Below are positions 19,814 to 28,981 of a DNA stretch of 64,000 nucleotides, in pieces. The translations under genes were made by a program, and so were the position numbers. The first letter of the stretch is position 1. Every line of letters begins with the position of its first letter. Below the pieces are notes generated by a model, which worked only from the letters and a program-made list of their open reading frames with translations, was not told where the DNA came from and searched no databases. The stretch is taken from the NCBI RefSeq assembly GCF_003790525.1, contig NZ_CP033635.1; one strand, written 5' to 3'. This DNA is from Escherichia coli (GTDB taxonomy: Bacteria > Pseudomonadota > Gammaproteobacteria > Enterobacterales > Enterobacteriaceae).

Positions 19814-21235
19814 TCAGGCTTTCACATCACTCACTGCACCGACCGGAATATCAGCATGAACAGGCTCGGGCGGTACTTTGCGATATTTATCCAGCAGATG
19901 GATCTGGATCCTGCGCAGCGTGTCACCATTGAGGCGATAGAAACGGAAGTAGAGAATCAGCGTTACCATGAAAAACAGAGTGGGTAGAGCAATCATAATA
20001 AACTGCATACCTAATAGGGCTTGCGTAGACTGTTCAACATTCGGTACATAGCCAATCATCCCTAACACAACCGCAATGAAAAAAGCCGCAAAGGCTGAAC
20101 CGCCCTTCACCACCATAGTCTGCACGGAGTAAGCGATGCTTTCACAGCGTACGTGCAGTTTATATTCACCGTAATCAACGGTATCTGCCACCATGATGAC
20201 CTGTAATACCCAGAAAAGCGCCGTTCCCACATTCAGCAAAATACCCGCAATCACAATGAGGACGACGTTGTGATAGCTCATTAATGCCATTAACAGGAGA
20301 ACACCACAGCTTAACACCGGAAGAATAGATGCTCCGGCCCATAAAATGCGTCGGGATAATGATTTAACTAAGCGTGGGAAGAATACTAACGTCACCAGGT
20401 TAGCAGCTCCCGCATACGACAGATAATAGGGGAACAAATCCGCATCACCGATAACATATGAGAAATAATAGATAGCAAAGCCGGTAATAATATTGCTGGC
20501 TACATTATAAGCAAGAGCCATACCCAAGAGGCATGAAAGCTGATCGTTTTTATAAATAAGCGCAACGATGGCTTTAAGTGTCAGATGGCTTCCTTCAGCA
20601 GACGGCTGATTGTCTGACGAAAAGACTTCATGCACATTGCGCAGAGTGATGATGGTTGAAACAATAAAAAAGGCGATCAGTACCAGAGTGAACATCTGAA
20701 AGCCAAATCCCCGATCGCCACCGCCGACATAATTAACAAATGGTAGCGTCACACCTGCCGTAACAAAGCCCGCCAGACTGGCAAAAAAACGCGGATAAGG
20801 AACCAGTTGTTCGCGCTCACGTTTATCGAGCGTTATGGTTGGAACCAGCGACCAGAAGGGAATATCCATAATGGTGTAAGTCATGCCCCAGAGGATGTAG
20901 GTCACGCAAACAAAGACAATCTGAGTAGTACCTTCAAACAGATGCGCACTAAAGAGGAGAAATAAGATTACAGAGTTTGCCAACGTACCGATCAGGATCC
21001 AGGGTTTGAACTTACCCCATCGCGATCGCGTAGCATTTACAATCCATCCCATAATCGGATCGTTAATAGCATCCCAGATCCTCGCCACCAGAAACAAAGT
21101 ACCGACCAAACCCACAGACAGTCCGACGACATCGGTGTAGTAATACATGAGATACATATACACAATGCCGATCGCAAAATCCTTCCCGAACGCTCCAAAT
21201 CCATAACTGAGTTTTGTAGTCATTGAAATGCTCAT
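19814..21235 (-). CDS. melB: Melibiose:cation symporter
   Basis: 473 aa from [20 protein letters not shown]…; GPH-family transporter. Confidence 0.95.
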
Positions 21236-21337: not shown

Positions 21338-22693
21338 TTAACGGTGCAACCAGCCTGGCAGCCAGTCGCCGTGGGCGGCAATCAGGTCGTCAACAAGAGC
21401 ATATATTTCGTCAATGCCCAGCACGGCGGCAGTATGCGGGTCCATCATCGCGGCGTGGTAAACACGGTCGCGATTTTCCGTAAGAATAGCTTCGGTCAGC
21501 AGCGTCTGTACGTTGATGTTGGTTTGCATCAGGGCGGCCAGATGCGAAGGTAGCGTACCGACTTTGGTCGGCTGAATGCCATTAGCATCAACCAGACAGG
21601 CTACTTCCACGCAACATCCTTGTGGCAGGTTATCAATCAATCCATCGTTACGGACGTTGCCGTAAATCACACTCGGCTCGCCAGTCCAGATAGCGTTCAT
21701 GATTGTGCTGGCATATTCCCGTGACGGTTTAATATCAATCCGGGAGGCGTTCTTATACTCCTCCAGCTCTTTATGCCAGTTTGCCAATTGTTCGACGCAG
21801 CGTTTCGGGTACTCATCCAGCGGTACTTTATAACGCTCAATCAAATCCTCACGACCAGGCTTAATAAACCACGGTGTGTATTCAGCAAAATGTTCTGACG
21901 ATTCCGTGACGAAGTAGCCCAGCTTTTTGAACATTTCATAACGCACAATATTCTGGCAGCGAGTATTGCCATGAATATTCGGCTTCGGTGCCTGCCCTGC
22001 GTCATACGCTGCCAGCAGTTCCGGGTAGAGATTCACGTAACTGCCGTCGGCGGTTTTGCGCTCCAGTTCCAGGTAAAACGCCATATGGTTGATACCTGCG
22101 CAACGGTAACGCAGCGTAGCCGGGTCGATATTGAGGTCACGCGCCAGCTCTTCCGCCGTTCCCTGCACCGAATGGCACAGCCCTACCTGTTTGATATGCG
22201 GATAGCGGGCATACATCGCCCAGGTATTCATCGCCATTGGGTTAACGTAGTTGAGCATGGTGGCATCGGGGCAGACTTCCGTCATGTCCTCGCAAATTTG
22301 CCACAGATGCGGAATGGTACGTAGCGCGCGCATAATACCGCCCGGCCCCAACGTATCGGCAATGGTTTGTTCCAGACCATGCCGCTTACAGACCTCGAAA
22401 TCAGTCACCGTGCAAGGTTCATAACCGCCAATCTGAAATGCCACCACCACAAAATCGGCATCCTGTAAGGCTTCTTTCTGTTGGGTGTGGCAGGTGATTT
22501 TGCCGCTGGCCCCTGCTGAATCCATCAGCTTACGCACCACAATGTGCGACTCTTCCAGGCGGGTGGGATCGATATCCATCAGGGCAATATGCGCCGTTTT
22601 CAGCGCCTCACGATGGAACACATCACCAAGAATATTTTTAACGAAAATCGTCGAACCAGCGCCGATAAATGTAATTTTAGGTGCAGACATCAT
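21338..22693 (-). CDS. melA: Alpha-galactosidase (NAD/Mn-dependent, GH4)
   Basis: 451 aa; N-terminal Rossmann GxGS motif (IGAGSTIF). Confidence 0.95.
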   Translation of the reverse strand: MMSAPKITFIGAGSTIFVKNILGDVFHREALKTAHIALMDIDPTRLEESHIVVRKLMDSAGASGKITCHTQQKEALQDADFVVVAFQIGGYEPCTVTDFEVCKRHGLEQTIADTLGPGGIMRALRTIPHLWQICEDMTEVCPDATMLNYVNPMAMNTWAMYARYPHIKQVGLCHSVQGTAEELARDLNIDPATLRYRCAGINHMAFYLELERKTADGSYVNLYPELLAAYDAGQAPKPNIHGNTRCQNIVRYEMFKKLGYFVTESSEHFAEYTPWFIKPGREDLIERYKVPLDEYPKRCVEQLANWHKELEEYKNASRIDIKPSREYASTIMNAIWTGEPSVIYGNVRNDGLIDNLPQGCCVEVACLVDANGIQPTKVGTLPSHLAALMQTNINVQTLLTEAILTENRDRVYHAAMMDPHTAAVLGIDEIYALVDDLIAAHGDWLPGWLHR

Positions 22694-22771
22694 GCAGATC
22701 TCCTGGCTTGCTTGAATGACTTCATCATGGCAGGCGAATCTGCAGAAAACCTCCGGCTTCCAGGTTGAGCA

Positions 22772-22827
22772 TTCCCATAAACTCAGATCCTGCGTGAAGT
22801 ATCAGTAAATCTGAGTTTATGGGAATA
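22772..22827. promoter_or_regulatory. Inverted repeat in the melR/melAB divergent control region (probable MelR operator pair)
   Basis: attcccataaactcag (22772..22787) and its reverse complement ctgagtttatgggaat (22812..22827), separated by 24 bp. Confidence 0.5.
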
Positions 22828-22975
22828 AATTAGCTAAAAAGCAGAGTTTTCGGCCTCAGAATGCTCGGACGGTCCCCTCGCCCCTCTGGGAAGAGAGTGA
22901 AAACCGTGCTCCCACTCGCAGTCAACCTCCCTCACTCCTGCCATAATTCTGATATTCCAGGAAAGAGAGTCATCC

Positions 22976-23884
22976 ATGAATACAGATACGTTTATGTGCA
23001 GCAGCGACGAAAAGCAGACCCGTAGCCCACTGTCGCTGTATTCAGAATACCAGCGGATGGAAATTGAGTTTCGCGCACCACATATCATGCCCACCAGCCA
23101 CTGGCATGGTCAGGTCGAAGTGAATGTGCCTTTCGATGGCGATGTGGAATACCTGATCAACAATGAAAAAGTGAATATCAATCAGGGTCATATCACGCTG
23201 TTCTGGGCCTGCACACCGCACCAACTAACAGATACCGGAACCTGTCAGAGCATGGCGATTTTTAATCTGCCGATGCATCTGTTTCTCTCCTGGCCGCTGG
23301 ATAAAGACCTGATTAACCACGTTACTCACGGCATGGTGATCAAATCACTGGCGACACAGCAACTTAGCCCGTTTGAAGTGCGCCGCTGGCAGCAGGAATT
23401 GAACAGTCCGAACGAGCAAATTCGCCAGCTCGCCATTGATGAAATTGGCCTGATGCTCAAGCGATTTAGCCTCTCTGGCTGGGAACCGATTCTGGTCAAT
23501 AAAACCTCGCGCACACACAAAAACAGCGTCTCGCGCCATGCGCAATTTTATGTCAGCCAGATGCTGGGCTTTATTGCCGAAAACTATGATCAGGCGCTGA
23601 CCATCAACGATGTGGCTGAGCACGTCAAACTTAACGCCAACTATGCAATGGGGATATTCCAGCGGGTCATGCAATTGACAATGAAACAGTACATTACCGC
23701 GATGCGCATCAACCACGTTCGCGCGTTACTGAGCGATACCGATAAAAGTATTCTCGATATTGCCCTGACGGCAGGCTTTCGTTCGAGTAGCCGTTTTTAC
23801 AGCACGTTCGGCAAATATGTCGGCATGTCGCCGCAACAATACCGCAAACTTAGCCAACAACGCCGCCAGGTGTTTCCCGGCTAA
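22976..23884 (+). CDS. melR: AraC-family melibiose operon activator
   Basis: 302 aa; C-terminal AraC-type HTH; divergent from melAB. Confidence 0.95.
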   Translation: MNTDTFMCSSDEKQTRSPLSLYSEYQRMEIEFRAPHIMPTSHWHGQVEVNVPFDGDVEYLINNEKVNINQGHITLFWACTPHQLTDTGTCQSMAIFNLPMHLFLSWPLDKDLINHVTHGMVIKSLATQQLSPFEVRRWQQELNSPNEQIRQLAIDEIGLMLKRFSLSGWEPILVNKTSRTHKNSVSRHAQFYVSQMLGFIAENYDQALTINDVAEHVKLNANYAMGIFQRVMQLTMKQYITAMRINHVRALLSDTDKSILDIALTAGFRSSSRFYSTFGKYVGMSPQQYRKLSQQRRQVFPG

Positions 23885-28921: not shown

Positions 28922-28946
28922 TTCCCCTTAATCAAGCACACATAAA

Positions 28947-28981
28947 AGCCAACCTTAAGAACTTAAGGTTGGCTTAATTTT
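28947..28981 (+). terminator. adiC rho-independent terminator
   Basis: 13-bp stem agccaaccttaag / cttaaggttggct with 2-nt loop, followed by taatttt. Confidence 0.6.
28962..28978 (+). promoter_or_regulatory. PmrA (BasR) box in the eptA promoter
   Basis: CTTAAG-gttgg-CTTAAT: two hexamer half-sites with 5-bp spacing, about 45 bp upstream of the eptA start; overlaps the right arm of the adiC terminator. Confidence 0.55.

What the first reader, a model, noticed from the sequence alone, without database searches (positions are those of the whole stretch)
22694..22975. Long inverted repeat in the melR/melAB divergent control region
The 16-bp sequence attcccataaactcag (22772..22787) recurs as its exact reverse complement at 22812..22827. 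This is consistent with paired MelR operator sites arranged symmetrically between the divergent promoters.
Basis: partly seen in the sequence, partly recalled or inferred. Interest (0 to 1): 0.25.

Follow-up and report, generated by a model that had tools for sequence, protein, structure and literature searches.

The report
MelR binding sites 1 and 2
The inverted repeat is the well-known pair of identical 18-bp MelR binding sites (site 1 and site 2) upstream of the E. coli melibiose operon promoter, so it is real and functional but already fully described.

Summary
The repeat is real. It is 18 bp, not 16, and lies one base left of the reported coordinates: 22771-22788 and 22809-22826, with 20 bp between the arms. 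It is the longest perfect inverted repeat in the window and far beyond chance.

It lies in the 282-bp spacer between melA (-) and melR (+). This spacer aligns without gaps to E. coli K-12, and both arms are identical to K-12.

Samarasinghe et al. 2008 give the melR -10 hexamer (CATAAT), site 2 at -174.5 from the melR start, an 18-bp consensus shared by sites 1 and 2 with G at positions 5 and 13, and a CRP site between them. By these anchors the arms are MelR site 2 (-62.5 from the melAB start) and site 1 (-100.5).

Comparison of E. coli alleles and six enterobacterial genera shows both sites, their inverted orientation and 38-39 bp spacing retained. The sequence between them drifts freely. Arm substitutions are never compensated, which fits protein sites and not a hairpin.

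One detail is off: the pair is not centred between the two promoters. Verdict: already known, low interest.

The parts
22771..22788 (-). MelR site 2. The 18-bp consensus ATCTGAGTTTATGGGAAT reads on the - strand, towards melAB. Centre is -62.5 from melAB +1 and -174.5 from melR +1.
   Evidence: Exact arm of the inverted repeat. Identical to K-12. The centre matches the published -174.5.
22809..22826 (+). MelR site 1. The same 18-mer reads on the + strand, towards melR. Centre is -100.5 from melAB +1.
   Evidence: The paper states that the consensus is found at both site 1 and site 2.
22788..22809 (.). CRP1, the weak 22-bp CRP site between MelR sites 1 and 2. Centre is 22798.5, i.e. -81.5. On the melAB strand it reads TTTACTGATACTTCACGCAGGA, with 6/10 core matches and G7 and C16 present. 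It has two substitutions relative to K-12.
   Evidence: The paper places CRP1 between site 1 and site 2 and inactivates it at positions 7 and 16. Its low affinity and MelR dependence are stated in PMC1635313 and PMC2395238.
22829..22846 (-). MelR site 1'. Centre is -120.5. CTCTGCTTTTTAGCTAAT matches the consensus at 11/18 when read on the - strand. Orientation is inferred from sequence only.
   Evidence: One of the four best consensus matches in the spacer. The block CTCTGCTTTT is conserved in six genera. The paper lists site 1' adjacent to site 1.
22751..22768 (.). Expected position of MelR site 2' (-42.5, overlapping the melAB -35 region). This is the weak site that is occupied only with melibiose.
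   Evidence: Its existence and role come from PMC2377442. The -42.5 coordinate is from my memory of Wade 2001 and Grainger 2003 and was not verified here. The match to the consensus is poor: 7/18 on the + strand by hand count, and it is absent from the >=9/18 hits listed. Only 2 of its 18 columns vary among E. coli alleles.
22947..22964 (+). MelR site R, the autoregulatory operator overlapping melR +1. TTCTGATATTCCAGGAAA matches the consensus at 11/18, with G5 and a non-consensus A13.
   Evidence: The paper describes a consensus G at position 5, a non-consensus A at position 13, overlap with the transcript start, and orientation opposite to site 2.
22902..22923 (.). CRP2, the CRP site centred 41.5 bp upstream of melR +1. 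It reads AACCGTGCTCCCACTCGCAGTC (cGTGc-N6-TCgCA, with G7 and C16).
   Evidence: The paper places CRP2 41 bp upstream of the melR start. The sequence was read directly. Only 4 of 22 columns vary among E. coli alleles.
22942..22954 (+). melR promoter -10 hexamer CATAAT (22942-22947) and inferred transcript start at 22954.
   Evidence: The hexamer sequence is given in PMC2377442 and found in the sequence. The start is inferred from the standard 7-nt hexamer-to-start distance. It agrees with site 2 lying at -174.5.
22717..22729 (-). melAB promoter -10 hexamer CATGAT (22729 to 22724 on the - strand) and inferred transcript start at 22717.
   Evidence: The melR start is 237 bp upstream of the melAB start, so 22954 - 237 = 22717. 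A CATGAT hexamer lies at -12 to -7. This placement is inferred.
22976..23884 (+). melR, encoding a 302-aa AraC-family regulator.
   Evidence: NCBIfam NF007693, 634.6 bits. 301/302 residues identical to K-12 MelR, with N222 and R273 present.
21338..22693 (-). melA, alpha-galactosidase, 451 aa.
   Evidence: NCBIfam NF011657, 735.9 bits. Annotated as melA in SMS-3-5.
19814..21235 (-). melB, melibiose:sodium symporter, 473 aa as annotated.
   Evidence: NCBIfam NF007749, 901.8 bits. Annotated coordinates were transferred from L001.

Best explanation
The two arms are MelR binding sites 1 and 2 of the E. coli melibiose regulatory region.

Shown by the cited paper for K-12:
- Each 18-bp arm is a complete, asymmetric target for one MelR monomer, whose two helix-turn-helix motifs contact G5 and G13.
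- The two sites are identical and face each other across a weak CRP site.
- Without melibiose, MelR occupies sites 1', 1, 2 and R. This complex represses the melR promoter.
- With melibiose and cAMP-CRP, CRP binds between sites 1 and 2 and MelR also fills site 2', which overlaps the melAB -35 region. Together they activate melAB transcription.

Shown here: the sequence identity, the positions, and the conservation of the sites.

Inferred: that MelR actually binds these sites in this particular strain, based on 100% identity of the sites and a near-identical MelR.
For: 1. Flanking genes are melR, melA and melB.
2. The spacer is 282 bp, as in K-12. It aligns without gaps at 95.4% identity, and both arms are identical to K-12.
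3. Three independent anchors from PMC2377442 fit to the base:
   - the melR -10 CATAAT at 22942-22947 gives +1 = 22954;
   - site 2 at -174.5 gives 22779.5, the centre of the left arm;
   - CRP2 at -41.5 gives 22912.5, where a cGTGc-N6-TCgCA motif sits.
4. The arm sequence has G5 and G13, as stated for the consensus found at sites 1 and 2.
5. A blind scan with the 18-mer puts the four best spacer hits at -62.5, -100.5, -120.5 and -238.5. Site R shows G5 and A13 exactly as published.
6. Among 10 E. coli alleles the arms vary in 5 of 36 columns, against 48 of 140 in the rest of the variable core (p=0.024).
7. In the species-representative genome scan, all 15 enterobacterial hits lie in the melR-melA spacer. 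The partner arm matches at 14-18 of 18 in inverted orientation, 38-39 bp away. G5 and G13 are kept in 16/16, while the inter-arm DNA is unconserved.
8. MelR in the window keeps N222 and R273.
Against: - No binding experiment exists for this strain.
- The primary mapping papers (Webster 1989, Caswell 1992, Belyaeva 2000, Wade 2001, Grainger 2003) were not held. The literature anchor is therefore one later paper from the same laboratory, plus my memory for the -42.5 and -120.5 values.
- The cross-genus set was ascertained by requiring one perfect arm, so it overstates conservation of that arm.
- The E. coli conservation contrast is modest (p=0.024, 10 alleles that are not phylogenetically independent).
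Confidence: 0.96

Rival explanations
1. The repeat works as a nucleic-acid structure. This would be a DNA cruciform in supercoiled DNA or an RNA hairpin (attenuator or terminator), not two protein sites.
For: As single-stranded DNA the 68-nt segment folds into an 18-bp stem. The energy is -17.8 kcal/mol and the z-score -8.4 against shuffles.
Against: - The repeat lies upstream of both inferred transcript starts (22717 leftward, 22954 rightward), so neither mel promoter transcribes it.
- No terminator-like site was found.
- The only Rfam matches are eukaryotic miRNA hairpin models at 19-29 bits, against gathering scores of 80-107.
- None of the five arm substitutions in E. coli alleles, nor any in other genera, is compensated. 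Arm-to-arm complementarity falls to 14-17/18 while the match to the protein-contact positions is kept.
- Any perfect 18-bp palindrome folds well by construction.
Confidence: 0.02
2. The dyad is the operator of a different, dimeric palindrome-binding regulator, and MelR binding is incidental.
For: Perfect dyad symmetry is typical of dimeric repressor operators. No other evidence was found.
Against: - The half-sites are 18 bp each and 38 bp apart centre to centre, too far for a single dimer.
- The sequence carries the MelR consensus features published from mutational and Fe-BABE work.
- The 18-mer occurs in enterobacterial genomes only next to melR and melA.
Confidence: 0.01
3. The repeat is a chance feature or a non-functional relic, such as a mobile-element terminal repeat or a duplication scar.
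For: None beyond the formal possibility.
Against: - The expected number by chance is about 4e-5 per window.
- Only two copies exist in the window.
- The spacer is present in 5400 of 5426 complete E. coli genomes.
- The arrangement is retained across six genera.
Confidence: 0.01

Closest known systems
MelR sites 1 and 2 (with CRP1) of the E. coli K-12 melR-melAB regulatory region (Busby laboratory; Samarasinghe et al. 2008, PMC2377442, and papers cited there)
   Same: - Same genes and the same 282-bp spacer length.
- Both 18-bp sites are identical in sequence.
- Same 38-bp centre-to-centre spacing and the same positions relative to both promoters.
- Same site R and CRP2.
- MelR is 301/302 identical.
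   Different: - The spacer carries 13 substitutions relative to K-12.
- Two fall in CRP1; one of them (C to A at position 8) brings the left half closer to TGTGA.
- Two fall in site 1'.
- One is adjacent to the melAB start.
- None touches sites 1, 2 or R.
AraC sites araI1/I2 and araO2 at araC-araBAD
   Same: - The regulator is from the same AraC/XylS family.
- The targets are asymmetric, about 17-18 bp, each bound by one monomer through two helix-turn-helix motifs.
- The regulator gene is divergent and autoregulated through distant sites.
- CRP is a co-activator (parallel drawn in PMC2377442).
   Different: - AraC uses two sites in the same orientation and a 210-bp repression loop.
- MelR uses four bound molecules in a 'repression complex', with sites 1 and 2 inverted around a CRP site.
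- No loop was seen by AFM.
CytR-CRP nucleoprotein complex at deoP2
   Same: CRP occupies a site only through cooperative protein-protein contacts with a specific regulator bound next to it (PMC1635313).
   Different: - At deoP2, CytR is a repressor sandwiched between two CRP dimers.
- At mel, one CRP dimer is sandwiched between MelR activator molecules.

Membership tests
MelR sites 1/2 of the mel regulatory region | Located in the spacer between divergent melR and melAB | tested here: met
   NCBIfam equivalogs for MelR and MelB and a subfamily model for MelA flank the 282-bp spacer. RefSeq annotation agrees.
MelR sites 1/2 of the mel regulatory region | Two identical 18-bp sites carrying the MelR consensus, with G at position 5 and G at position 13 | tested here: met
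   Both arms read ATCTGAGTTTATGGGAAT with G5 and G13. They are identical to K-12. The features are as stated in PMC2377442.
MelR sites 1/2 of the mel regulatory region | Site 2 centred at -174.5 from the melR start, which equals -62.5 from the melAB start 237 bp away | tested here: met
   CATAAT at 22942-22947 gives +1 = 22954, and the arm centre is 22779.5. The transcript start itself is inferred from hexamer spacing and was not measured.
MelR sites 1/2 of the mel regulatory region | A CRP site lies between the two sites | tested here: met
   The dyad-centred 22-mer has 6/10 core matches with G7 and C16, the two positions the paper mutates to inactivate the site. It is weak, as the literature states.
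MelR sites 1/2 of the mel regulatory region | Accompanied by the auxiliary sites 1', 2' and R | tested here: inconclusive
   Site R (11/18, G5, A13) and site 1' (11/18) are found at the expected centres. Site 2' has no convincing sequence match, consistent with it being a weak site. Its coordinate rests on my memory of papers not held here.
MelR sites 1/2 of the mel regulatory region | Cognate MelR with DNA-contact residues N222 and R273 | tested here: met
   Window MelR is 301/302 identical to K-12, with N222 and R273 present.
MelR sites 1/2 of the mel regulatory region | Physical occupation by MelR (footprint, gel shift or ChIP) | not testable with these tools
   Shown for K-12 DNA in PMC2377442. 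Inferred for this strain from sequence identity.
Intrinsic terminator or regulatory RNA hairpin | Transcribed, G+C-rich stem followed by a T-run, or a match to a curated RNA family, with pairing kept by compensatory change | tested here: not met
   No terminator-like site. Rfam gives only sub-threshold miRNA hairpin hits. The repeat lies upstream of both inferred starts. None of the arm substitutions is compensated.
Repetitive or mobile-element inverted repeats (REP, MITE, IS ends) | Many dispersed copies in the genome, not tied to one locus | tested here: not met
   Only two 18/18 copies occur in the 64-kb window. Across species-representative genomes, every enterobacterial occurrence lies in the mel spacer.

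The most novel reading that the evidence does not exclude
The arms and their 38-39 bp spacing are fixed across Enterobacterales, but the DNA between them is not.

- A recognisable CRP core (G7 and C16, 5-6 of 10 matches) at the dyad centre is seen in every Escherichia allele and in Cedecea.
- It is at chance level (0-4 of 10) in the Citrobacter, Kluyvera, Pluralibacter, Serratia and MGYG-HGUT-00110 genomes.

The MelR-CRP-MelR 'enhanceosome' could therefore be a largely Escherichia-specific elaboration. Other genera may activate melAB with MelR alone, or with CRP held purely by protein contacts. Likewise, the B2-type E. coli alleles have 1-2 substitutions in site 2 and a rewritten inter-arm segment, so they might differ quantitatively in melibiose induction.
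Probability: 0.15. Interest if true: 0.3.

Novelty: already known. Interest (0 to 1): 0.05.

Why it matters
This adds nothing new to biology. The element is a textbook example of co-dependent activation (MelR plus CRP) and of AraC-family autoregulation through multiple distant sites.

Its value for the scan is as a positive control. A reader working from raw sequence alone correctly recognised a genuine, experimentally mapped pair of transcription-factor sites.

The comparative data gathered here are a small by-product. They show conservation of G5, G13 and the spacing, uncompensated arm changes, and lineage-specific loss of the perfect dyad. These fit the published two-helix-turn-helix contact model.

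Tried and rejected
- Primary papers. I tried to read Wade 2001 (PMC125794), Bourgerie 1997 (PMC146657), Caswell 1992 (PMC1133192), Kahramanoglou 2006 (PMC1447455), Elrobh 2013 and Grainger 2004. None is held. The supplement of PMC2377442 with primer sequences is not held either.
- A full-text search for the numeric positions (62.5, 100.5 and so on) returned only noise.
- Two other hits for 'MelR' plus 'inverted repeat' were irrelevant to the DNA sites.
- Strain AQ15, the weakest BLAST hit, is a heavily fragmented assembly and was dropped.
- A linear coordinate transfer of the whole window onto NC_010498.1 gave 8920 mismatches over 49.5 kb. I therefore claim only that the spacer is identical to SMS-3-5, not that the window is that strain.
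- The simple sigma-70 scan found no promoter. This is expected for activator-dependent promoters, so it was not used against the mapped promoters.
- Hairpin, terminator, Rfam-family and mobile-repeat readings were tested and rejected.
- I did not run the expensive protein-based scan of genome contigs. The cheaper 18-mer DNA scan gave enough cross-genus loci.

Full report
**Observation**

Reading the window and running the repeat finder confirm a perfect inverted repeat in the stated region. It is 18 bp, not 16, and lies one base to the left of the reported coordinates. The arms are 22771-22788 (ATTCCCATAAACTCAGAT) and 22809-22826 (ATCTGAGTTTATGGGAAT), separated by 20 bp and 38 bp centre to centre.

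An exhaustive scan shows it is the longest perfect inverted repeat with a loop of 60 or less in the 64-kb window. The next has 14-bp arms. In 60 first-order Markov resamples of the window the longest such repeat was 9-13 bp. The analytic expectation for 18 bp or more is about 4e-5 per window.

**Context**

- The ORFs on either side are melA (21338-22693, - strand, 451 aa) and melR (22976-23884, + strand, 302 aa).
- melB lies beyond melA and adiA beyond melR. All have strong NCBIfam matches.
- The spacer is 100% identical to E. coli SMS-3-5 and about two dozen other complete genomes. It is present in 5400 of 5426 complete E. coli genomes.
- K-12 MG1655 has a spacer of the same length. The two align without gaps at 95.4% identity, and both arms are identical to K-12.

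**Mapping onto the published sites**

The only detailed paper held in the library is Samarasinghe et al. 2008 (PMC2377442). It states the following:

- MelR binds 18-bp sites 1', 1, 2, 2' and R, and CRP binds between sites 1 and 2.
- The melR transcript starts 237 bp upstream of the melAB start, and site 2 is centred at -174.5 from the melR start.
[quoted passage not shown] These contact N222 and R273 of MelR.
- Site R has the consensus G at 5 and a non-consensus A at 13. It overlaps the melR start and is oriented opposite to site 2.
- The melR -10 hexamer is CATAAT, CRP2 lies 41 bp upstream of the melR start, and CRP sites are inactivated at positions 7 and 16.

In the window these statements fit as follows:

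- CATAAT is at 22942-22947, which places melR +1 at 22954.
- The left arm's centre, 22779.5, is exactly 174.5 bp upstream of that start.
- The arm read as ATCTGAGTTTATGGGAAT has G5 and G13.
- The 22-mer centred at -41.5 (22902-22923) reads cGTGc-N6-TCgCA, with G7 and C16.
- melAB +1 falls at 22717, with a CATGAT hexamer at -12 to -7.

A scan of the spacer with the 18-mer, using no prior positions, puts the four best hits at -62.5, -100.5, -120.5 and -238.5 relative to that melAB start. The -238.5 hit is TTCTGATATTCCAGGAAA on the + strand, with G5 and A13. This matches the paper's description of site R.

The arms are therefore MelR site 2 (22771-22788) and site 1 (22809-22826). The window's MelR differs from K-12's at one residue (T299V) and keeps N222 and R273.

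**Comparative evidence within E. coli**

The spacer is unusually polymorphic, falling to about 85% identity in B2-type strains. I aligned ten alleles.

- The arms vary in 5 of 36 columns, against 48 of 140 in the rest of the variable core (Fisher p=0.024).
- The 20 bp between the arms vary in 9 of 20 columns.
- The perfect dyad is allele-specific. E. coli B, ST131, O18:H1 and others carry one or two substitutions in one arm, and none is compensated in the other arm.

**Comparative evidence across genera**

One plain-DNA scan of the species-representative genome collection with the 18-mer gave 21 loci.

- Six are unrelated taxa with no mel genes, in line with the roughly 9 chance matches expected.
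- The 15 Enterobacterales hits are from Escherichia, Citrobacter, Kluyvera, Cedecea, Pluralibacter, Serratia and an unnamed Enterobacteriaceae genome. Each lies in the melR-melA spacer, or immediately upstream of melA where melR was not detected in the retrieved locus (three loci: L021, L025, L031).
- Given one perfect arm (the ascertainment), the partner arm is always present in inverted orientation. It matches at 14-18 of 18 and lies 38 bp (13 of 16) or 39 bp (3 of 16) away.
- Positions 1-7 and 12-16 are nearly invariant, and G5 and G13 are kept in 16 of 16. Positions 8, 11, 17 and 18 drift.
- The inter-arm DNA is not conserved between genera.

This is the pattern expected of two independently constrained protein sites with two major-groove contact blocks. 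It is not the pattern of a base-paired structure.

**Rivals**

- The segment folds well as single-stranded DNA (-17.8 kcal/mol), as any perfect palindrome must.
- It lies upstream of both inferred transcript starts.
- No terminator-like site is present.
- Rfam gives only sub-threshold eukaryotic miRNA hairpin matches.
- Arm changes are uncompensated.
- The 18-mer is not a dispersed repeat.

**Mechanism**

This part is established for K-12 and inferred here. Each arm binds one MelR monomer.

- Without melibiose, MelR fills sites 1', 1, 2 and R and represses melR through a four-molecule complex.
- With melibiose, CRP binds the weak site between sites 1 and 2 through contacts with MelR. MelR then fills site 2' at the -35 region, and melAB is activated.

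**Verdict**

Three corrections apply:

- The repeat is 18 bp and the coordinates were off by one.
- The pair is centred at -81.5 from melAB but -155.5 from melR, so it is not symmetric between the promoters.
- The sites are mainly activator sites and not simple operators.

The feature is already known and interest is low.

The only mildly novel lead concerns the CRP core at the dyad centre. It is recognisable in all Escherichia alleles (5-6 of 10 matches, with G7 and C16). It is at chance level in most other genera. This hints that CRP co-dependence at this promoter may be lineage-specific.

Noticed in passing
window 22740-22915; loci L003-L010: The mel spacer has two deeply diverged haplotypes within E. 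coli. The central ~180 bp is only about 75-85% identical between the K-12/SMS-3-5 type and the B2 type (ST131, O18:H1). The flanks are almost invariant: site R with the melR -10 on one side, the melAB -10 and leader on the other. Whole-spacer identity bands across 5400 genomes were: 25 at >=99%, 3807 at 95-99%, 556 at 90-95%, 1012 at 80-90%.
   Followed up: partly
window 22788-22809; loci L012-L031: The CRP1 22-mer between the arms keeps G7 and C16 and 5-6/10 core matches in every Escherichia allele examined. It scores 0-4/10 (null mean 2.5) in the Citrobacter, Kluyvera, Pluralibacter, Serratia and MGYG-HGUT-00110 genomes. The window allele has A at position 8 where K-12 has C, which is one match closer to TGTGA.
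   Followed up: partly
window 22952-22975; L001 3259: RefSeq/PGAP annotates melR in SMS-3-5 as 8 codons longer (WP_255773839.1). Searches show the same extension in three other genomes. The longer form starts at an ATA codon at 22952, 2 bp upstream of the inferred melR transcript start (22954). This is probably a wrong start call; K-12 and most genomes use the ATG at 22976.
   Followed up: partly
window 22708-22734 and 22937-22963: The -10/+1 regions of the two divergent promoters form an imperfect long-range inverted repeat (27 nt, 70%). Both carry CCTGCCAT(A/G)AT. The melR -10 is CATAAT and the melAB -10 is CATGAT.
   Followed up: no
window 22829-22846; loci L012-L031: Site 1' contains a block CTCTGCTTTT that is conserved across six genera. 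It fits consensus positions 1-10 when read in the same direction as site 2, which is inverted relative to the adjacent site 1. The paper that determined orientations experimentally (Grainger 2003) is not held, so this sequence-based orientation is unverified. Sites 1' and 2' also match each other in inverted orientation: 9/18 in the window and 11/18 in K-12, with null P(>=10) about 0.007.
   Followed up: partly
window 28946-28975: The second-longest perfect inverted repeat in the window is AAGCCAACCTTAAG / CTTAAGGTTGGCTT, with a 2-nt loop followed by AATTTTGCTTT. It lies just after the adiC stop and looks like an ordinary intrinsic terminator.
   Followed up: no
window 23870-23872 (MelR residue 299): Window MelR differs from K-12 MelR only by T299V, near the C-terminus and outside the named DNA-contact residues.
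   Followed up: no
window 1-49567 vs NC_010498.1: The spacer is 100% identical to SMS-3-5. A straight coordinate transfer of the window onto that genome nevertheless gave 8920 mismatches over 49.5 kb. The window therefore either has indels relative to SMS-3-5 or comes from another strain with the same mel allele.
   Followed up: no
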